A DNA stretch of 52,716 nucleotides from the sequence record MN158210.1. One strand, given 5' to 3'. A program made the translations under genes and the position numbers. The notes beneath the pieces are model-generated. The model saw only the letters and a list, made by a program, of their open reading frames with translations, was not told the DNA's origin and did no database searches. Of this stretch, positions 1-52,716 are shown in pieces (the stretch's first letter is position 1; every line of letters starts with the position of its first letter). The DNA comes from Escherichia phage BEK12A.

Positions 1-528
1 ATGGCTAAAAATGTTGAGCCTGCTGTAAAGGCATTAAATTTCAAAGAGTTATACAATAAAACTTATGGCGATATTGTCACGCTAAACAACCGCCACAAGT
101 ACACGCCGGAACAGGTTTTTGATATGGCGATCCGCTATTTCACTTGGGCCGAAGAGAATCACATCCAGGCGGCTGAAACTGCTTCCTTTCAGGGTGACGT
201 GTACGAGAGCAGAGTTTACAAGCCTCGCGTTTTCACGGTTAACGGATTCAGCTTGTATCTCGGCGTGACTGAGGCTGCCGTAAGCAAATGGCGTAAAGAG
301 CCTGGATTCTGCGATGTGATGGAGTTTGTTGATAAAGTAATTTACGAGCAAAAATTCCAGCTTGCGGCAAATAACATGATTAACGCTGGATTTATCGGTA
401 AAGAGATCGGAGTAGAGAAGCCAGCAACAGTGAGCGTTGAAGCGAGCGCGGCAGCTAATGCAAGCATTGACGCAGTAACTGCCGATGAGGTTAAAGAGGC
501 TGTGATTGATATTCTGGAGAAGATATAA
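1..528 (+). CDS. putative terminase small subunit
   Basis: 175-aa ORF directly upstream of the terL/HNH block; RBS GGAGGA sits at the extreme 3' end of the window (circular permutation); position-based call. Confidence 0.5.
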   Translation: MAKNVEPAVKALNFKELYNKTYGDIVTLNNRHKYTPEQVFDMAIRYFTWAEENHIQAAETASFQGDVYESRVYKPRVFTVNGFSLYLGVTEAAVSKWRKEPGFCDVMEFVDKVIYEQKFQLAANNMINAGFIGKEIGVEKPATVSVEASAAANASIDAVTADEVKEAVIDILEKI

Positions 529-1019
529 TGAACTACTCAGATTACTTTGTCTTATCTGACGAATCGCCAAGCGGCTTGAAATGGAAGGTTAACAAAGGTA
601 GATCTAAGGTTGGAGATAACGCGATAACTGCTATCAGTGGCGGCTACTATAAAGGCCGCCTTAACCAAAAAACTGTATATGCGCACAGAATTGTGTTTGC
701 ACTTTACTATGGCTTTGAGCCTGATGTTGTTGATCATATTGATGGTGATGGTTTGAACAATAATCCGTTAAATTTAAGGGATGGAACAAAAGCAACGAAT
801 AATCAAAACCGCGTGGTGTTTGGGGCTTACTATCACAAAAGGGATGGTGTTTTTTATTCCTCGATATGTGTTAACGGTGAAAGGTATCATTTAGGAACAT
901 TTAAAAGTGAGATTGAGGCAAGGGCTGCGTACATTTCAGCAAAGCCAAAATTTCACGAGTTCGCAAATATGGAGAGGTATAAACATGCTAATTTGGGAAG
1001 ACTTGACGCCAGCGCATAA
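528..1019 (+). CDS. HNH homing endonuclease (HNH plus AP2-like DNA-binding domain)
   Basis: HRIVFALYYG...DHIDGDGLNNNPLNLRDGTKATNNQNR motif; C-terminal AP2-like segment; overlaps terS stop (ATAATGA). Confidence 0.85.
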   Translation: MNYSDYFVLSDESPSGLKWKVNKGRSKVGDNAITAISGGYYKGRLNQKTVYAHRIVFALYYGFEPDVVDHIDGDGLNNNPLNLRDGTKATNNQNRVVFGAYYHKRDGVFYSSICVNGERYHLGTFKSEIEARAAYISAKPKFHEFANMERYKHANLGRLDASA

Positions 1020-2553
1020 AAGAGCAATCAAGGAAATGAGCGAGCACTCATTCGAAAAGATGATCAGAATATGGTTTCCTCTTTTGCAAGGTCAGAAATT
1101 CTTAGGAAACTGGCATTTCAGCTACCTATGTAGCGAAGTTGAAAAAATAATCAAAGGAGAGTCGCAGAATGTGATTTTCAACATTACGCCAGGTAGCGGT
1201 AAGACTGAGATTTTCTCGATCCACATGTCACCCTACGCGTCATTGAAAAGCCGGAAAGTGAGAAACCTTAACCTTTCGTTTAGTGATGGCCTTGTCCAGC
1301 AAAACAGCAACCGGATAAAGGAGATTATTGGTTCTCCTGAGTGGCAAGAGCTATGGCCTGGAAAACTGGCAAAGGCGAGCGCTAAAGATCTGATAGTCAC
1401 CGAAGGCGGCAAGGTTAAATTGCAAGTTAACTCACGTTCTATTGGCGGCCAGGTAACAGGTTTGCGTGGCGGCTATATGGATGATGGTTTTACTGGTATG
1501 CTGGTTCTTGACGATCCAGACAAGCCGGATGACATGCTTTCTAAGGTCAAGCGCGAGGCTATTCACATGCGGTTAAAAAACACAGTGCGATCGCGTCGAA
1601 TGAAAGACACCACGCCAATTGTTATGGTGCAACAGCGACTACACGTTAATGATTCCACCTGGTTCATGCTTAATGGCGGGATGGGTGGTATTGAGTTTAA
1701 AGTTGTGAGCATTCCGGCGCTGGTTACGAAAGAATACCGCGAAACGCTTCCTGATTGGTTAAGGCATGAGTTTGATCGCGATGTTTTGTCCAGCAAGCCA
1801 GTAATGATTGATGGAGTTGCTCATTATTCATTCTGGCCTGCTAAGGAAAGCGCGGAGGAATTACTTGCACTTCGCAATGCTGATCCGTACACGTTCGCTA
1901 GTCAGTACCAGCAACAGCCTGTTGCGCTTGGCGGTAACGTGTTTAAAACAGAGTGGTTTCAGTATTACGGCAGCAGCGAGAAATGCACGCTACCAAAACC
2001 GGATCGCTTTGAATATACATTTATCACGGTTGATACCGCGCAGAAAACAGGTGAGCTTAACGACTACTCCGTGATCTGTTATTGGGGGATGTATAAAGAT
2101 CGCGTTTACTTCATTGATGGTGTTCGCGGAAAATGGGAAGCACCAGACCTTGAGACTAATTTTGTTGCGTTCGTTAATCAGTGCTGGAAGCGCAATAAAG
2201 AATGCGGAACGTTGCGAAGGATTCATGTTGAAGATAAGTCATCTGGTACTGGCTTGATTCAGAGCGCAGCGAAAAAAATCATGATCAAGATCAATCCCGT
2301 TCAGCGAGATAAAGATAAGGTTACGCGAGCAATGGACGCAGCACCAGTAATGCGCGCCGGACGCGTGGCACTTCCAGAATCGCATCCTATGCTGGCTGAG
2401 ATACTCGCTGAAGTTGCGGCGTTTACATTCGATGATAGCCATCCTCATGATGATATTGTTGACACATTGATTGATGCCGTTAATATAGAAATGAACTTGG
2501 CAGACGATCCAGTTGGAAGAATGAAGAAGTTAGCAGGGCTTAGAAAGAGATGA
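985..2553 (+). CDS. terL: terminase large subunit
   Basis: ATG at codon 27 of the 907..2553 ORF preceded by GGAGAGG; Walker A-like NITPGSGKTE; C-terminal nuclease-like acidic residues; size typical. Confidence 0.85.
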   Translation: MLIWEDLTPAHKRAIKEMSEHSFEKMIRIWFPLLQGQKFLGNWHFSYLCSEVEKIIKGESQNVIFNITPGSGKTEIFSIHMSPYASLKSRKVRNLNLSFSDGLVQQNSNRIKEIIGSPEWQELWPGKLAKASAKDLIVTEGGKVKLQVNSRSIGGQVTGLRGGYMDDGFTGMLVLDDPDKPDDMLSKVKREAIHMRLKNTVRSRRMKDTTPIVMVQQRLHVNDSTWFMLNGGMGGIEFKVVSIPALVTKEYRETLPDWLRHEFDRDVLSSKPVMIDGVAHYSFWPAKESAEELLALRNADPYTFASQYQQQPVALGGNVFKTEWFQYYGSSEKCTLPKPDRFEYTFITVDTAQKTGELNDYSVICYWGMYKDRVYFIDGVRGKWEAPDLETNFVAFVNQCWKRNKECGTLRRIHVEDKSSGTGLIQSAAKKIMIKINPVQRDKDKVTRAMDAAPVMRAGRVALPESHPMLAEILAEVAAFTFDDSHPHDDIVDTLIDAVNIEMNLADDPVGRMKKLAGLRKR

Positions 2554-3032
2554 ATTGGCACGATATTTTCTATATAGAAGATGATAAGCTATTCAATAAA
2601 GTTGATAGGGGAGCAAGGGCAATGGCTGGCAAGGAGGCTGGCTGCTTGCATAAGAATAGCGGTTATGTAGTTGTAAGGGTTGACGATAAGCTGCTAAAAG
2701 CGCATAGGATAATTTACGAAATGCGCCACGGTGCAATACCAGAAGGAATGGAGGTTGACCACATAGACCACAATAGATCAAACAACTCTGACAGCAATCA
2801 TAGGCTGGTTACGCATAAGGAAAATACACAAAACGTAACAAGGAGAAAGACAAACAACAGTGGTTGCACTGGTGTTTATTGGTATGAGTCAAGATCAAAA
2901 TGGTGGTCTTTTATTGGAACTGGCAAGGGCAGAAAATCACTTGGCTATTATTCTGACTGGTTTGATGCCGTTTGCGCCAGAAAGAGAGCGGAGTTTGAGC
3001 TTGGTTATCACGAAAACCACGGCAAGAAATAG
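2550..3032 (+). CDS. HNH homing endonuclease
   Basis: HRIIYEMRHGAIPEGMEVDHIDHNRSNNSDSNHRLVTHKENTQN; paralog of 528..1019; overlaps terL stop. Confidence 0.85.
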   Translation: MNWHDIFYIEDDKLFNKVDRGARAMAGKEAGCLHKNSGYVVVRVDDKLLKAHRIIYEMRHGAIPEGMEVDHIDHNRSNNSDSNHRLVTHKENTQNVTRRKTNNSGCTGVYWYESRSKWWSFIGTGKGRKSLGYYSDWFDAVCARKRAEFELGYHENHGKK

Positions 3033-8380: not shown

Positions 8381-8653
8381 ATGGCTAAAGAAAAAACTGT
8401 AACGCTAAAGGTTTCCGGCGTGTGCCTTATCATTGTTGATGGTGAGCATTATCATCCAGGCAAAGAGTTTGACGTAGAAGAATCAAAATTGAAAACAAGC
8501 GCGTTTGAATATCTAATTGCAAAAGGCGATCTGGAGGTTAAAGACAACTCCGCATTGAACGAAGAAATCAAACAGAGCGCAGCAAGCAAACGTAAAAAAG
8601 ACCCGCGAGAGGGCAAGAGCAAAGCCGAACTTGAAGACGGCGGCATCTATTAA
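8381..8653 (+). CDS. hypothetical head-associated protein
   Basis: 90 aa ORF with RBS, between two hairpins. Confidence 0.45.
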   Translation: MAKEKTVTLKVSGVCLIIVDGEHYHPGKEFDVEESKLKTSAFEYLIAKGDLEVKDNSALNEEIKQSAASKRKKDPREGKSKAELEDGGIY

Positions 8654-8700: not shown

Positions 8701-9120
8701 ATGGTAGATGAATTTTACACAGACGCTGAAATCATGCAGCAGATCGTAAAGTTAGCGCCGCCAATGCAACAGGTTGATCCCGATTTAATTGTGGCATGGA
8801 TTGAGCTTGCTAAAGAGTTTGTTTGCAAAAAGCGTTTTAAAAACTCATACCCGAAAGCAGTTGCGCTTTACACTCTTCACCTTATGACCTTAGACGGGGC
8901 AATGAAACAGGAAGGTGAAAGCGTAGAAAGCTATTCCCGCCGCGTCGCCTCGTTCACTCTGACTGGTGAGTTTAGTCAGACGTTTGATCGAATCTCTTCC
9001 GATACAAGCGGAAAGCAGATCCGACAAACGCCGTGGGGCAAAATGTACGAAGTGTTAAACCGTAAGCACGGTGGCGGTTTTGGCCTTGTAACTGGATTGC
9101 GCCGGAGATGTTGCCGATGA
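8701..9120 (+). CDS. putative head-tail connector / adaptor protein
   Basis: 139 aa; position after capsid; overlapping stop/start with the next gene. Confidence 0.45.
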
Positions 9121-22173: not shown

Positions 22174-22192
22174 GTTTAGCAAAAAGTGCTAT
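22174..22192 (-). promoter_or_regulatory. conserved 20-bp box upstream of leftward lipoprotein operon (variant GCTAAAC)
   Basis: minus strand reads ATAGCACTTTTTGCTAAAC, then 18 bp, then TATAGT. Confidence 0.5.
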
Positions 22193-22254
22193 TTGTTATT
22201 TTTTGTTTTCCGGTGTTATCGGATTTAAGACGGCGTAAATTTAGCGCAAATCTT

Positions 22255-28988: not shown

Positions 28989-30986
28989 ATGATTCCAAAT
29001 ATCGAAAAACAAATATCGGCGTTAGGCGAGGCAGTAATAAAAAGCATCCAAGAGCGATTCACGGTTGGCAATATAGTGCCTTATCCTTATCAGTGCGTTG
29101 CGTATGCCGAGATCGCAAAGCGCATGAAAAACTATGAGCATCCTTTCTTTGTTAAGGCTTCTGTGTCGGCTGGTAAAACATTGATGTTTGCGATGGTTGC
29201 GGCGCAATGCCGCAAGATGGGATTGAAAATGATGGTCCTTGCTCGCCAGGCTGAAATTGTTGATCAGGATTCAGAAGAGATCAGCAATCTTGGCGTGCCA
29301 AACTCAATCTATTGCGCCGGACTGAAAACAAAAAGCGCATACTTTCCGATCGTAGTCGGTTCTGAGGGCACTGTAGTAAACGGATTGTTTAAGTCGTTAG
29401 GTGATTATGTTCCGCACGTTATCGGTATTGATGAATGTCACCAGGTGGATTGGGAGGATCTCGCTGATGCGATAGAAAATAATGAATCTTACCAGCAGAT
29501 GACCACTAAGAAGGATTTGCCTGTACTGATTGGAGAAGAACAGCAATTTGATTCCAATGGCGATCCAATGTTCGGAACAGGGCGCACACAGTACACCGTA
29601 ATAATCATGGAAATGATGCGCAGGTGTCGCGAGGCATACGGGCATGAATTGCGAATATTCGGTATGACTGGATCTGAGTTTCGCGGCGTGGTTCCAATAC
29701 TGGTTGAAGATAAGAACAAAAAGGGATTCTGGCGTGAGCAGGTGACTAACATAGACACAAACTACTTAATCAAATTTGGTTCGGTAGTGCCAACAAATTT
29801 CGGCGACGTAGGCGACCTGGGGTATGACCTTTCAGAGTTCGAAGCCAGTAGCGAGGATGGCGTTTCAGACTTTGACGCTAAAACATTGCGCAAGATGGAA
29901 GAAAAGATCCATCAAGACGCAACAATGACACAGAAAATCATGGCTAAAGTCCATGAGATATGCAAAGACAGGAACGGAGTTTTAGTTACATGCGCAGGGG
30001 AAAGGCACTGCAAGGAGGCCGCCGCCGCACTGCCGCCAGGCGTTGAATACAGGATCATAACTGGCAAGACTGGAGACAATCAGCGTAAAGAGTGGCTAAG
30101 GGAGGCATACGAGGGAAAAGTAAAATACATCTTCCAGGTACAGGCGCTTACCACTGGCGTTAACGTTCCGTTTTGGGATACTTCTGTAATACTGAGAAAG
30201 ATAGGATCTCTAACATTGCTTATCCAGCTTTTGGGGCGCGGTATGCGACTGCTTAAGCAATGGCACATTGAGCAGGGATTCAAGAAAAAAGACCATCTTG
30301 TATTGGATTTTGCCGGTACTATGGATGAGTTAGGGGATTTGTATTTCGATCCAATCCTTGAGCAAGCGCAATTCCAAAAGAGATTTACAAACGGGAAAGA
30401 GCCTAAGACTTGTCCGATATGTGGAACGCTAAACAGCTTTTACGCTCGCCGATGTATGCACGTAGACGATAACGGGAAGAGATGCGAGCATTTTTGGACT
30501 TACAGAATTTGCGAGGACCAGGTAGATCCGAGAACGAAAAAGATAATCAAGCGCGGTTGCGGAACAAAAAATGACGTAGTGGCGAGAGTATGCCGTTGTT
30601 GCGATATTTCTCTTGTCGATCCTAACGAGAAGTTAAGCGGCAAGCACTACACCAAAAACGATTGGTGCAACGTTAAATCTTTCCGCGTTGATATGACGAA
30701 AAACCAGAAAGGAATTGTTTTTTGCTATGAGCTTGAGGCCAACGGCGACACGTTCAAGGCATACGAAAGATTTTTCCCTGAGTCAGAAAGCAACATTTGC
30801 CGGACGATATGGAGAAAAATAGCATTGCAGCACATACCGGATCGCAAGATTGCTGGTATGGTGGCGAGCTATAGAAATGCGCGTAAAATAATGTCATACG
30901 CTCATCACATCATGCCTCCTGTACGCGTAACGCATCGCAAAAACGGCAAAGGTGAGGATAACATTGCAAAACGGGAGTTTGTTTAA
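28989..30986 (+). CDS. SF2 DNA helicase (DEAD/DEAH-box type)
   Basis: Walker A SVSAGKT, motif II GIDECHQ; C-terminal Cys-rich zinc-finger-like region. Confidence 0.8.
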   Translation: MIPNIEKQISALGEAVIKSIQERFTVGNIVPYPYQCVAYAEIAKRMKNYEHPFFVKASVSAGKTLMFAMVAAQCRKMGLKMMVLARQAEIVDQDSEEISNLGVPNSIYCAGLKTKSAYFPIVVGSEGTVVNGLFKSLGDYVPHVIGIDECHQVDWEDLADAIENNESYQQMTTKKDLPVLIGEEQQFDSNGDPMFGTGRTQYTVIIMEMMRRCREAYGHELRIFGMTGSEFRGVVPILVEDKNKKGFWREQVTNIDTNYLIKFGSVVPTNFGDVGDLGYDLSEFEASSEDGVSDFDAKTLRKMEEKIHQDATMTQKIMAKVHEICKDRNGVLVTCAGERHCKEAAAALPPGVEYRIITGKTGDNQRKEWLREAYEGKVKYIFQVQALTTGVNVPFWDTSVILRKIGSLTLLIQLLGRGMRLLKQWHIEQGFKKKDHLVLDFAGTMDELGDLYFDPILEQAQFQKRFTNGKEPKTCPICGTLNSFYARRCMHVDDNGKRCEHFWTYRICEDQVDPRTKKIIKRGCGTKNDVVARVCRCCDISLVDPNEKLSGKHYTKNDWCNVKSFRVDMTKNQKGIVFCYELEANGDTFKAYERFFPESESNICRTIWRKIALQHIPDRKIAGMVASYRNARKIMSYAHHIMPPVRVTHRKNGKGEDNIAKREFV

Positions 30987-39327: not shown

Positions 39328-40010
39328 TTTGAGTTTGACTCAAAGACGGCGCGAGCAAATCCGCGCGGAGTGAGGGAGCGTAGTTGCTTTGTTCTGGCAG
39401 ACTTACCGCCTAAAAACTTCCAACCCCAAAAGAACATTACGCCCTCATCATTGGATAACGGCTTGCGTTCCGGTTCTGTAAATCCGTTGCCGCACCAGAT
39501 AGCAGTCCTTTTTGTGTAGCCATCCTTTAGCGGCATCTTGGGGTGAAAAGATCCATCGGATTCGTCCAGGTAGTTACCAAAATCGCGAGGATTGAAATAA
39601 AAATCAGGCTTGCGCCATAGCGTTGATAGTCGGCCTACAGGATTCTCAGCCATCCAGGGAACACCGAAATGATTCCCGACAGTTTCAACCATGATTGCAT
39701 TTTTGAGCGCAACCTGAATATCATCATCGCTTCGCACGTGCTTGATTCCTGATTGGGCAAACATGGTGCAGTCTGGAAATCCAAATACAATATCTGGTTT
39801 TGGAATACCAATCTTACTGATTCTTTCAATGAAATTTTCATCAATCCACATATTCACATAATGCAGATTTTCATGTTTCATCTTGATGAAATATTCGCCG
39901 TGATTGCCTTCATCAGCGTTAAAGCAATAGCATTGATAGCCAGCCTTCGCATATTCAAGCAGCATGATTCCAGATCCATCAAACATTGAGTAAGCAACTT
40001 TATTTCCCAT
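39324..40010 (-). CDS. putative DNA methyltransferase-like protein (divergent C5-cytosine MTase-like motifs)
   Basis: FDGSG (motif I-like), GFPDCTMFAQSG (PC-motif-like with an insertion), ENPVG (ENV-like); divergent, so assignment is tentative. Confidence 0.35.
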   Translation of the reverse strand: MGNKVAYSMFDGSGIMLLEYAKAGYQCYCFNADEGNHGEYFIKMKHENLHYVNMWIDENFIERISKIGIPKPDIVFGFPDCTMFAQSGIKHVRSDDDIQVALKNAIMVETVGNHFGVPWMAENPVGRLSTLWRKPDFYFNPRDFGNYLDESDGSFHPKMPLKDGYTKRTAIWCGNGFTEPERKPLSNDEGVMFFWGWKFLGGKSARTKQLRSLTPRGFARAVFESNSK

Positions 40011-40527
40011 GATTTTTATGATACCCCAATTCATTCTCGGCTTTACGTTTTGCGGCAACAGCATCTCCAAAACTGGAAAAACAACCTATATAAATCCTAC
40101 TTCCTCTCCTTCCGCCTCCAACCCTTACAACCCATTTGCCATGTTTATTTTTATGCACACCTGGTATGCCACTTGTATTGTTTTTCTGCTTTGATGTGTT
40201 TCGCATATTTCCTTTGTGATCTTTTAACTCAAAGTTTATTGCTCTGTTATCAGTCGTAATGTGATTTACGTGATCAACCTCCTTTCCTTCCGGTATAGGC
40301 CCATAGTGCATTTCATAGCATATTCTATGAACTTTCAGGTTATAACGTTTTCCGTTTACAGTAAGTGCAGTTTCTAAATATCTGCCACCACTACCCAAAG
40401 AGCCAACCTCATTACCAGCATTGCAAGCATTCCATTGTTTAACTCTTGATGGGTGAATATCTTTTCTTTCTTTCCAGAACAGCTTTCCAGTTTCTGGATT
40501 GTATGTAAAGTAATCGTGCCAATTCAT
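40000..40527 (-). CDS. HNH homing endonuclease (HNH plus AP2-like)
   Basis: HRICYEMHYGPIPEGKEVDHVNHITTDNRAIN; C-terminal AP2-like segment similar to 528..1019. Confidence 0.8.
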   Translation of the reverse strand: MNWHDYFTYNPETGKLFWKERKDIHPSRVKQWNACNAGNEVGSLGSGGRYLETALTVNGKRYNLKVHRICYEMHYGPIPEGKEVDHVNHITTDNRAINFELKDHKGNMRNTSKQKNNTSGIPGVHKNKHGKWVVRVGGGRRGSRIYIGCFSSFGDAVAAKRKAENELGYHKNHGK

Positions 40528-43541: not shown

Positions 43542-43575
43542 TGCTATCTCCTGAGCGGTTCGTTTCGATGTGTGT

Positions 43576-43619
43576 AATGTACCCGATCAGGTGGTCTGAG
43601 TTTTAACAAAAAGTGCTAT
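43576..43619 (-). promoter_or_regulatory. conserved box - TACATT - CATCGAAACGAA module heading the leftward early operon
   Basis: minus strand ATAGCACTTTTTGTTAAAAC, then 18 bp, then TACATT; no gene upstream, so it acts as operon leader. Confidence 0.6.
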
Positions 43620-43644
43620 TTGACGGTTAGCGCCAGGATTGTGA

Positions 43645-43745
43645 TCGAAATAATCAAAAGTAATCATTCGTAATCAAATCACGTCAAAATGATGATTGCC
43701 TTTGCAAATTTTATGAGAAAAGTAATCACGTTTAATCATTGGTTG
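43645..43745. repeat. phased TAATCA direct repeats (iteron-like)
   Basis: TAATCA at about 43651, 43661, 43671 (10-bp phasing) and again near 43723 and 43734. Confidence 0.5.
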
Positions 43746-43889
43746 CAGGGGAGATAGTGAAACCTTCCCCTCTTGCCTCACTTTTTTGCCTGGCTGTCAG
43801 TGGTTGTTATGTTCCGTTCCCTCCTGTTCTTTTGTTGACCTTCCGCAAAATACGATAACAAAAAATAACAAACAATACCTATATAATAC

Positions 43890-44030
43890 ATTGAAAAATA
43901 AGGATTATTTATTTATATGTATCTATATATTCTCTTTTGTTATCTTGGTTATTGTGGTATTTGGTGGGGGTATATAGTTTTTGTGTATCTGTATGTGTGT
44001 ATGGGTATGTAGGGGCATATATATCTATAT
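43890..44030. repeat. AT-rich noncoding repeat region B (homologous to 22255-22460)
   Basis: TATTTATTTATATGTATCTATAT..TTTTGTTATCTTGG..TTGTGG..TTTGGTG..GTATCTGTATGTG. Confidence 0.6.
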
Positions 44031-44158
44031 GGCGCTTTCCGCGAGAAAACTTCGATAACAGGCAATGATAACATTGATTTATAAGGAAAAATAACTCCTA
44101 TATTGTTATTGTGCCACCATATAAAATTGATAAAACACGCAGGAACAAGAAAAAACAG

Positions 44159-44187
44159 TTGACACATTAAATAGCATTATTGATAAT
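44159..44187 (+). promoter_or_regulatory. consensus sigma-70 promoter (TTGACA-17-GATAAT) for rightward early operon
   Basis: perfect -35, 17-bp spacer, good -10, about 30 nt upstream of 44216 start. Confidence 0.7.
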
Positions 44188-44215
44188 GCCCACACCTAAC
44201 AACCAGGAGGCAGAA

Positions 44216-44680
44216 ATGAGCGAGCAATCATTCACTGACACGCTGCGCCGTGCCGCTATTATGCTGGCTAATGGCGAGGAAGAGACGATCAAGATTCCTG
44301 ACGCGTATTTGCAGGTCCACATGTTCGGCAAGAAGTCGGCAAGCAATCCGGCGGCCTACATTCGCCAGATCATGAGTCGAGTGCCAGAAGTCGCCGAGCG
44401 GGGGCGCGTATCCGTTACCCGTGGCGTTTACGGGCCGGAAGATGAAAACTTCGGTAGCACTTTCTACGAGGTGCGCATTGTTGAAGGCCGTCGCAAGGTT
44501 TACAACAAAGAGGCACTGGAAAGGGCAGTACGCCAGGCTAAGCGCAAGGTTGCAGAGGCGATCATTGATATGTCACCAAACCTGGCAAACTATGCGCCGG
44601 AAGAGTACGAAACATTATCAAAGGCCGTCGCTGACTTTCACGCGATGATCAAAAAAACTTTCCTGGAGGATGAGCAATGA
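44216..44680 (+). CDS. hypothetical early protein
   Basis: ATG at codon 13 of the 44180 ORF with RBS AGGAGG; about 154 aa. Confidence 0.5.
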   Translation: MSEQSFTDTLRRAAIMLANGEEETIKIPDAYLQVHMFGKKSASNPAAYIRQIMSRVPEVAERGRVSVTRGVYGPEDENFGSTFYEVRIVEGRRKVYNKEALERAVRQAKRKVAEAIIDMSPNLANYAPEEYETLSKAVADFHAMIKKTFLEDEQ

Positions 44681-51648: not shown

Positions 51649-51879
51649 ATGTTCGGCATGAATGAGGCGCAATTCAACGCAGCTAAACGCCAGGCTAAAA
51701 AGTGCGGCGAGGCGATGAAAGCGGATGTGGAAAAGCGCGGGAAGTATGTTGATGAAGTAATGAAGGGCATCATTGCAGAACACTACCAACCAATCGCGCC
51801 AATGTTGACGATCACTCAATTCATTTGGCTATGTGGTTACTTGCGCGGACGCTGGGGGAACGCTTTCGACAGGGAATGA
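51649..51879 (+). CDS. hypothetical protein
   Basis: ATG at codon 35 of the 51547 ORF; preceded by a possible 42-aa ORF at about 51521..51649. Confidence 0.35.
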   Translation: MFGMNEAQFNAAKRQAKKCGEAMKADVEKRGKYVDEVMKGIIAEHYQPIAPMLTITQFIWLCGYLRGRWGNAFDRE

Positions 51880-52150
51880 TTGACAACTCTTTCCTGATTG
51901 GTTAGCATGGCGTCGTTTACATAAGAGCGGCTTAGTCCGAACGCGTGACGCGATAGTCACACAACAACGGCGATATGCAGGAGGTTTTTGCAATGCAAAA
52001 TAATCCGTAAGACGTATCGCCTTTTTTAATGGAGATCCAAAATGATTAAATACAAATTAACCGTTTCTTTCCGTGATACCGTTATTCATCCTTTCTACAA
52101 TAGCTTTGTTAACAGCTTTACAGTAGAAGTTACAGAGGATTAGCTAGACG

Positions 52151-52417
52151 GTGACGAAACTTGCATTTCTATTGGAAATGTTGCTTACCCGATTCACAAC
52201 ATTACCAGCATTAAGCGTGAGGTTGTCGCTGATGAATTACAAAGTGAAGATGACGATCCGGCGAATGGGGCGTAATTGCCAATCATGCAAACAGGAATAT
52301 GAATGCGTAGTTGATGCTCTTGATGAACTGGAAGCAGTAGCAAAAGCAAAAGAGCAATCGGGCGCTAATCCTGAAACACATCAATTTTCAATTAACCTTG
52401 TGAGGGCTTTACAATGA
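52151..52417 (+). CDS. hypothetical protein
   Basis: 88 aa ORF. Confidence 0.4.
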   Translation: MTKLAFLLEMLLTRFTTLPALSVRLSLMNYKVKMTIRRMGRNCQSCKQEYECVVDALDELEAVAKAKEQSGANPETHQFSINLVRALQ

Positions 52418-52638
52418 TCGCATTATCTTTCTTCATTGGTTTTATCATGGCTATCATTATCTTTTCCGTTGTCATGCGCTTTGCTTATAAGTTCGTTATT
52501 AATAAAGGCTGGTACGCTTCTGCAATCTGGAGCGAAAAACAAAAGAAATGGCTTGTACGTGGTCAATACCTGATGATCGGCAGCAAGATCCTAAATTCCA
52601 TTCGAGCCAAAGATGGAAAAGTAAAATATACAGCTTAA
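52414..52638 (+). CDS. small membrane protein
   Basis: N-terminal TM segment ALSFFIGFIMAIIIFSVVM; last gene before terminator. Confidence 0.4.
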   Translation: MIALSFFIGFIMAIIIFSVVMRFAYKFVINKGWYASAIWSEKQKKWLVRGQYLMIGSKILNSIRAKDGKVKYTA

Positions 52639-52644
52639 AAATTA

Positions 52645-52668
52645 CCCGCCGCACGGCGGGTTTTTTAT
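52645..52668 (+). terminator. strong rho-independent terminator
   Basis: CCCGCCGCACGGCGGG plus TTTTTTATT. Confidence 0.75.
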
Positions 52669-52679
52669 TGCCCGTTGTC

Positions 52680-52716
52680 TGGTATAATCAGGCATCTAAC
52701 AAAAGGAGGATTGACA
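52680..52716 (+). promoter_or_regulatory. extended -10 promoter (TGGTATAAT) and RBS (AGGAGG) for the ORF at base 1
   Basis: TGnTATAAT followed by AAAAGGAGGATTGACA at the window end; ATG at base 1 lies 7 nt after the SD when the ends are joined. Confidence 0.55.

What the first reader, a model, noticed from the sequence alone, without database searches (positions are those of the whole stretch)
52640..52716. Window ends join: complete circularly permuted genome linearised at terS
The 3' end of the window carries a strong terminator, an extended -10 promoter and an AGGAGG Shine-Dalgarno with nothing downstream, while the ORF at base 1 begins at its ATG with no leader. Joining the ends places the SD 7 nt before that ATG. 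This is the signature of an assembly of a terminally redundant or circularly permuted phage genome opened at the packaging gene.
Basis: seen in the sequence. Interest (0 to 1): 0.4.

Follow-up and report, generated by a model that had tools for sequence, protein, structure and literature searches.

The report
Rotated complete T1-like phage genome
The window is the complete genome of a known T1-like coliphage (BEK26), rotated by computer to start at the small-terminase gene, so its two ends are neighbours in the real DNA; this is ordinary bookkeeping, not new biology.

Summary
The last 77 bases hold an intrinsic terminator (52644-52666), a TGnTATAAT extended -10 box (52680-52688) and an AGGAGG Shine-Dalgarno (52704-52709). 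The SD lies 7 nt before the ATG at base 1, which starts a P22-gp3-type small terminase gene.

The window equals GenBank MN158216.1 (Escherichia phage BEK26, Drexlerviridae, Warwickvirus; 52,716 bp) rotated by 30,539 bases, apart from one base. In that record the window's two ends are contiguous. They are also contiguous in 103 related phage records. The record's own ends (window 22177|22178) are spanned by 64 relatives. The map is therefore circular and complete. Starting at terS is a re-orientation convention, not a physical end.

Terminal redundancy with limited circular permutation is inferred from homology, not shown for this phage. TerL is 65% and TerS 53% identical to phage T1, a pac-initiated headful packager. 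In T1, TLS and Chapo the pac end lies about 8.4-8.8 kb upstream of terS, not at it. The syntenic place here is the divergent intergenic region 43542-44216. The terminator/-10/SD module before terS is conserved across five Drexlerviridae genera. Already known; low interest.

The parts
52414..52638 (+). Last gene of the upstream (early/middle) unit, a 74-aa DUF7299 protein
   Evidence: ORF list. Pfam PF23973, E = 1e-28. Annotated as a hypothetical protein in the BEK26 record.
52644..52666 (+). Intrinsic terminator: 7-bp stem with 6 G-C pairs, a 4-nt loop and a T6 tract
   Evidence: Terminator scan. Folds at -13.8 kcal/mol. A stem at the same place pairs in 8 phages. Annotated as a terminator in Sip, G29-2 and T1.
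52680..52688 (+). Extended -10 promoter element TGGTATAAT (hexamer 52683-52688), with no recognisable -35
   Evidence: Sequence. The hexamer positions T, A, -, A, A, T are invariant in 8 phages. TG is present in 5 of 8 by my reading. Not called by the two-hexamer scan. Activity not tested.
52704..52709 (+). Shine-Dalgarno AGGAGG for terS, 7 nt before the ATG at base 1 once the ends are joined
   Evidence: The purine-rich SD is conserved in relatives.
1..528 (+). terS, small terminase subunit of the P22 gp3 family
   Evidence: Pfam GP3_package PF16677, E = 3.7e-11. PDB 3P9A (P22 gp3), E = 1.7e-15. 53% identical to T1 TerS and 47% to TLS TerS. Annotated as terminase small subunit in the record.
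528..1019 (+). HNH (HNH_3 plus weak AP2) homing endonuclease inserted between terS and terL
   Evidence: Pfam. Annotated as a homing endonuclease. Absent from Sip and EC167, where terL follows terS directly.
985..2553 (+). terL, large terminase subunit
   Evidence: Pfam Terminase_6C. Record annotation. 65% identical to T1 TerL and 64% to TLS TerL over the full length.
22177..22178 (.). The point where the ends of GenBank record MN158216.1 are joined in the window. Record base 1 (window 22178) is the first base of a copy of the T1-like intergenic repeat.
   Evidence: Rotation check. Spanned in one piece by 64 related records. Repeat copy at 22178-22193.
43542..44216 (.). 675-bp non-coding region between diverging transcription units; the candidate pac region by synteny. 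The position aligning with Chapo's mapped cut is about 43756|43757 (tentative).
   Evidence: ORFs and sequence. It lies 8.5-9.2 kb upstream of terS, against 8.4 kb in T1 and 8.8 kb in TLS. Gapped similarity to TLS nt 15-578 scores 189, against a shuffle maximum of 70. The Chapo cut at 68/69 is from PMC7471380. The cut-site motif match alone is not significant.

Best explanation
The window is the complete 52,716-bp genome of Escherichia phage BEK26 (Drexlerviridae; Tempevirinae; Warwickvirus), rotated by computer so that base 1 is the A of the terS start codon.

Shown: the last 77 bases are the 5' control region of terS and are contiguous with terS in the real DNA. They hold an intrinsic terminator that follows the upstream block of small early/middle genes, then an extended -10 promoter-like element and a Shine-Dalgarno sequence.

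Inferred: that promoter and SD start the packaging and morphogenesis (late) unit.

Inferred from homology with T1 and TLS: virion DNA is linear, terminally redundant and partially permuted. It would be made when the P22-gp3-type TerS and TerL cut concatemers once at a pac site and then by the headful for a few rounds.

Inferred from synteny: pac is not at terS. It lies about 9 kb upstream, in the divergent intergenic region 43542-44216, and packaging runs towards terS. The window's end junction would then lie inside essentially every packaged chromosome.
For: Identity with the record:
- The window is an exact rotation of MN158216.1 except for one base.
- The window junction is contiguous in that record and in 103 phage records.
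- The record's own ends are contiguous in 64 relatives.
- Neither the window nor the record has a terminal direct repeat.
- The window is collinear over its full length with EC167.

Packaging proteins:
- TerS belongs to the P22 gp3 family.
- TerL and TerS are 65% and 53% identical to those of T1.

What is known from relatives:
- The T1 record carries a 2.8-kb terminal repeat at 1-2800, with terS at 8396.
- TLS has a submolar pac fragment, about 1 kb of redundancy and 3-4 headfuls per series (PMC11447400).
- Chapo has a read pile-up pac cut at 68/69 of a T1-aligned record (PMC7471380).
- The Warwickvirus phages Poky and Phunderstruck circularised on assembly (PMC9119101).
- SU57 and KanT1 showed no fixed ends.

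Control region:
- The terminator/-10/SD module before terS is conserved in Warwickvirus, Hanrivervirus, P-K7R, T1 and TLS.

Synteny:
- Window 44.2-52.7 kb is collinear with T1 1-8.4 kb and TLS 1-8.8 kb.
Against: - No reads or restriction data exist here for BEK26 or any Warwickvirus, so redundancy, permutation and pac are not shown for this phage.
- I found no paper on BEK26.
- The pac-proximal DNA of T1 and Chapo shows no blastn-level similarity to the window. The motif aligning with Chapo's cut is not significant on its own.
- The promoter has no -35 and was not called by the scan. Its activity is untested.
- The terminator stem shows no two-sided compensatory changes.
- BEK26's unique length (52.7 kb) exceeds the virion DNA sizes implied for T1 (48.8 + 2.8 kb) and TLS (49.9 + about 1 kb). 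Its redundancy therefore cannot be taken from those phages.
Confidence: 0.9

Rival explanations
1. The window's ends are true physical ends (a cos or fixed-end genome that begins exactly at the terS ATG).
For: In some cos phages, lambda for example, the end lies just upstream of the small terminase gene (my own knowledge). Two other records, PeterMerian and EC167, also begin at the terS ATG.
Against: The deposited BEK26 record runs straight through this point. So do 103 other records. A cut here would separate the SD from its start codon. The terminases are close homologues of T1's headful enzymes and of P22 gp3. Records that start at the terS ATG follow a re-orientation convention.
Confidence: 0.01
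2. The ends of the GenBank record (window 22177|22178) are the physical ends, and the window wrongly joined them.
For: The record is flagged linear. Its first base coincides exactly with the start of a conserved repeat copy.
Against: 64 relatives, including the sister isolates BEK7, BEK1-23 and BEK12B, span this point in one piece, and each of those records opens somewhere different. There is no terminal repeat at the record's ends. A contig that breaks at a 15-copy repeat is what an assembler would produce (inference).
Confidence: 0.03
3. Headful packaging with pac inside or next to terS, as in P22 and Sf6, so that the terS opening point is close to the real first end.
For: TerS is a P22 gp3 homologue. 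In P22 the pac site lies within gene 3 (my own knowledge; the P22 pac sequence is quoted in PMC11447400).
Against: No P22-like pac sequence is present: 0 matches to the 22-mer with up to 3 mismatches, and matches to the 12-mer core are below chance with none in terS. In T1, TLS and Chapo the mapped end lies 8.4-8.8 kb upstream of terS.
Confidence: 0.07
4. Headful packaging without a preferred pac site, giving complete random permutation as in T4.
For: PhageTerm found no obvious termini for KanT1 and several possible ends for SU57.
Against: T1 and TLS show a submolar pac fragment and short packaging series. About 20% of Chapo's reads in the pac region share an identical end. MSK gave a significant single-strand peak.
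Confidence: 0.08

Closest known systems
Escherichia phage BEK26, GenBank MN158216.1 (Warwickvirus)
   Same: Same length, and identical at 52,715 of 52,716 bases after rotation by 30,539.
   Different: The opening point differs: record base 1 is window 22178. Window 40340 is T where the record has G; this changes Thr63 to Asn in an HNH endonuclease ORF. No record in the collection matches the surrounding 101 bases at 100%.
Coliphage T1 (Tunavirus), a pac-initiated headful packager with a 2.8-kb terminal redundancy
   Same: Same gene order from the divergent early region through the small ORFs to terS, terL and portal. TerL is 65% and TerS 53% identical. The same terminator/-10/SD module precedes terS.
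   Different: Different subfamily. The pac-proximal DNA is not alignable by blastn. BEK26 is 3.9 kb longer and carries HNH insertions on both sides of terL.
Phage TLS (Tlsvirus, Tempevirinae)
   Same: Same subfamily. The start of its record (nt 15-578, which holds the mapped pac) aligns with window 43687-44210. It has the same family of intergenic repeats, aaATAGCACnnnTTGnTAAAA.
   Different: TerS is only 47% identical. The pac of TLS was placed by restriction mapping and a weak resemblance to P22, so it gives no exact site to transfer.
Salmonella phage P22 gp3 small terminase (PDB 3P9A)
   Same: Same protein family, E = 1.7e-15 over residues 34-144.
   Different: In P22 the pac site lies inside the terS gene. 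Here no P22-like pac sequence exists, and relatives place pac about 8.5 kb upstream.
The database convention of re-orienting circularly assembled phage genomes to start at a terminase gene
   Same: The relatives PeterMerian and EC167 are deposited starting at exactly the same terS ATG.
   Different: None; this is a bookkeeping practice, not a biological system.

Membership tests
Drexlerviridae / Warwickvirus (phage BEK26) | Genome-wide nucleotide identity to a classified member | tested here: met
   Exact rotation of MN158216.1 apart from 1 base. The record's taxonomy line reads Drexlerviridae; Tempevirinae; Warwickvirus.
pac-type headful packaging phages | Circular (closed) sequence map with no fixed terminal repeat in the assembly | tested here: met
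   Both possible junctions are spanned by other records. No terminal direct repeat. Relatives circularised on assembly.
pac-type headful packaging phages | Terminase homologous to enzymes with experimentally shown headful packaging | tested here: met
   TerL is 65% and TerS 53% identical to T1. TerS belongs to the P22 gp3 family.
pac-type headful packaging phages | Submolar pac fragment or strand-specific read-start pile-up | not testable with these tools
   No reads or virion DNA are available. Known only for the relatives TLS, Chapo and MSK.
pac-type headful packaging phages | Terminal redundancy (virion DNA longer than the unique sequence) | not testable with these tools
   Known for T1 (2.8 kb) and TLS (about 1 kb). 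The headful size of Warwickvirus is unknown.
cos (cohesive-end) phages | Unique ends with complementary single-stranded overhangs | not testable with these tools
   No physical data. Nothing in the sequence or its homologies points to it. SU57, a T1-like phage, tested negative for cos.
Rho-independent terminator | G+C-rich hairpin followed directly by a U tract, downstream of a stop codon | tested here: met
   7-bp stem with 6 G-C pairs plus T6, starting 6 nt after the stop of the 52414-52638 gene; -13.8 kcal/mol.
Rho-independent terminator | Structure kept through compensatory changes in relatives | tested here: inconclusive
   The stem pairs in 8 of 8 phages, but 0 pairs show changes on both sides in the alignment.
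Sigma-70 extended -10 promoter | TGnTATAAT | tested here: met
   TGGTATAAT at 52680-52688, one of only 2 such sites on the + strand. The hexamer is conserved in 8 phages.
Sigma-70 extended -10 promoter | Transcription start shown experimentally | not testable with these tools
   No RNA data. The scan that needs a -35 did not call it.

The most novel reading that the evidence does not exclude
The module cut by the window boundary may be a distinct, family-wide late-promoter class for the packaging and morphogenesis genes. It runs terminator, then a conserved TGCCYG block about 9-14 nt upstream of the -10 hexamer, then TATAAT, and it has no -35. It also lacks the ATAGCAC...TTGnTAAAA repeat that precedes many of the early/middle genes; all 15 copies of that repeat lie at 22-51 kb. 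A phage factor might bind the conserved block. If so, this would bear on the open question raised by the TLS authors of how T1-like phages, which have no RNA polymerase or sigma factor of their own, time their transcription.
Probability: 0.12. Interest if true: 0.3.

Novelty: already known. Interest (0 to 1): 0.07.

Why it matters
It matters mainly for bookkeeping. The window is a whole, closed phage genome whose start was set by convention, so the sequence at its two ends must be read as one continuous terS control region and not as termini. Anyone looking for the real packaging start should look about 9 kb upstream of terS, at 43.5-44.2 kb, as in T1, TLS and Chapo. No new biology follows from the joined ends themselves.

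Tried and rejected
- Exact terminal direct repeats at the ends of the window and of the GenBank record: none found.
- P22-type pac sequence (22-mer with up to 3 mismatches, 12-mer core with up to 2): absent, or below chance and not in terS.
- Transferring Chapo's and T1's mapped pac cut by blastn: no similarity in the pac-proximal DNA. A gapped alignment suggests about 43756|43757, but the ungapped motif match is no better than 36 other places in the genome, so I keep it only as a tentative pointer.
- Looking for relatives whose records open in the divergent region, which might reflect determined termini: none among the top hits.
- Literature on BEK26: no paper found. Papers on the genus or its close relatives (JK16, vB_EcoS-95, FhuA phages, Danish wastewater phages, G29-2) report no terminus experiments.
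- The simple two-hexamer promoter scan does not call the terS promoter. I kept the promoter reading only because of the extended -10 and its conservation.
- TerL against solved structures by sequence: no hit.

Full report
**1. The observation**

All the described elements are present at the stated coordinates.
- The last gene on the + strand ends at 52638 (a 74-aa DUF7299 protein).
- A hairpin ACCCGCCG-CAC-CGGCGGGT follows at 52644-52661, with a T6 tract ending at 52666. The terminator scan calls it, and it folds at -13.8 kcal/mol.
- TGGTATAAT lies at 52680-52688. The pattern TGNTATAAT occurs only twice on the + strand of the whole window.
- AGGAGG lies at 52704-52709, followed by a 7-nt spacer that ends the window.
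- Base 1 is the A of an ATG that opens a 175-aa ORF.
- One qualification: there is no usable -35 hexamer, and the two-hexamer scan did not list this promoter.

**2. What the window is**

- A 1-kb query from the 3' end matched Escherichia phage BEK26 (MN158216.1) at 100%. That record has the same length, 52,716 bp, but the match lies at record 29540-30539.
- I fetched the whole record. The window is the record rotated by 30,539 bases, with one difference: window 40340 is T and the record has G.
- In the record, the base after the window's last base is the first base of the CDS annotated 'terminase small subunit'. The ends therefore join; this is observed, not inferred.
- A query made by joining the last and first 500 bases is covered at 80% or more in one piece in 103 phage records.

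**3. Is the map really closed?**

- Rotation means the window has joined the record's own ends, at window 22177|22178.
- A 1-kb query across that point is covered in one piece by 64 related records. These include three sister isolates (BEK7, BEK1-23, BEK12B), each opened somewhere different.
- Neither the window nor the record has a terminal direct repeat.
- The window is collinear from base 1 to its end with EC167, an independently sequenced Warwickvirus also deposited starting at the terS ATG. The differences are discrete insertions or replaced modules.
- The genome is therefore complete and its map circular.
- Record base 1 is exactly the first base of a 15-copy repeat. That fits an assembler break better than a physical end (inference).

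**4. Packaging type**

- ORF1 is a P22-gp3-type small terminase: Pfam PF16677 and PDB 3P9A at E = 1.7e-15.
- TerL (985-2553) is 65% identical to T1 TerL and 64% to TLS TerL. TerS is 53% and 47% identical to theirs.
- T1 and TLS are experimentally pac-initiated headful packagers. Their DNA is terminally redundant and only partly permuted, with three or four headfuls per series (PMC11447400; the T1 record annotates a 2.8-kb repeat).
- Other family members behave the same way:
  - Chapo: overlapping contig ends, no twofold-coverage region, and a pac cut supported by about 20% of the reads in that region (PMC7471380).
  - SU57: a restriction pattern like a circle, and no cos.
  - MSK and KanT1.
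  - The Warwickvirus phages Poky and Phunderstruck circularised on assembly (PMC9119101).
- I found no data for BEK26 itself, so this step rests on homology.

**5. Where pac probably is**

In T1-like phages that link does not hold.
- T1's record starts at the redundant end, with terS at 8396. TLS has terS at 8792. Chapo's cut is at 68/69 of a record aligned to T1's start.
- Window 44.2-52.7 kb is collinear with T1 1-8.4 kb and TLS 1-8.8 kb.
- The syntenic place is therefore the 675-bp non-coding region between diverging genes at 43542-44216. It is AT-rich and repeat-rich.
- This region has significant gapped similarity to TLS nt 15-578: score 189 against a shuffle maximum of 70.
- The position that aligns with Chapo's cut is about 43756|43757, but that motif match is not significant alone.
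- No P22-like pac sequence exists in the window.
- If packaging runs rightwards from there, as in T1, the window's end junction lies about 9 kb inside the first packaged chromosome.

**6. What the 77 bases do**

- I aligned the 100 nt before the terS ATG from BEK26, Sip, G29-2, haarsle, WaterSpirit, Klebsiella phage P-K7R, T1 and TLS.
- All eight show the same order: terminator hairpin with T tract, a conserved TGCCYG block, TATAAT or TAAAAT, SD, then ATG. There are 30 invariant columns.
- The stem pairs in all eight, though its variation is one-sided only.
- Terminators are annotated at this place in Sip, G29-2 and T1.
- Best reading: this is the boundary between the early/middle small-gene block and the packaging and morphogenesis unit.
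- The ATAGCAC-type repeat that precedes many of the early/middle genes is absent here.

**7. Verdict**

- The thing itself is a known genome shown in a conventional orientation. Novelty: already known. Interest: low.

Noticed in passing
window 22178-50604 (15 sites, e.g. 31401, 32912, 39313, 41795, 42301, 43605, 44945, 50589): The repeat AATAGCACTTTTTGTTAAAA occurs 15 times where 0.24 are expected. All copies lie in the early/middle region, and all but one (27350) read in the direction of transcription. Each is followed about 22-24 nt later by a -10-like hexamer and about 70-80 nt later by an SD and start codon. It is the same element as the TLS 21-nt repeat aaATAGCACnnnTTGnTAAAA, whose function the TLS authors list as an open question (PMC11447400). 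None lies in the late region (1-22 kb) or before terS.
   Followed up: partly
window 40340: The only difference from GenBank MN158216.1: T here, G in the record. It changes Thr63 to Asn in the HNH homing endonuclease ORF 40000-40527 (- strand). No record in the phage collection matches the surrounding 101 bases at 100%, so the T appears private to this copy of the sequence.
   Followed up: partly
window 528-1019 and 2550-3032: Two HNH_3-domain homing endonuclease genes flank terL, one between terS and terL and one right after terL. Both are absent from the close relatives Sip and EC167, where terS, terL and portal follow each other directly. The record annotates two more homing endonucleases in the early region.
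   Followed up: partly
whole window (52,716 bp): BEK26 is the longest of the Warwickvirus records listed (47.8-52.7 kb). Its unique sequence is also longer than the virion DNA implied for T1 (48.8 + 2.8 kb) and TLS (49.9 + about 1 kb). Under headful packaging, either the Warwickvirus capsid holds more DNA or BEK26 has little terminal redundancy left.
   Followed up: no
window 22178 (base 1 of the GenBank record): The deposited record begins exactly at the first base of one copy of the 15-copy intergenic repeat. This suggests the contig was broken at a repeat by the assembler and not at a physical end.
   Followed up: no
window 52669-52674: A short block TGCCYG lies between the terminator's T tract and the -10 hexamer, about 9-14 nt upstream of the hexamer. 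Its positions T, G, C and G are invariant in all 8 phages compared, T1 and TLS included, yet it is at the wrong spacing to be a sigma-70 -35 element.
   Followed up: no
one search hit list (relatives of window 51717-52716): Eight records named 'Campylobacter phage' (host Campylobacter jejuni, e.g. A16a, A14b) match this coliphage region at 70-90% identity. That is odd for a T1-like enterobacterial phage and may reflect contamination or mislabelling of those records.
   Followed up: no
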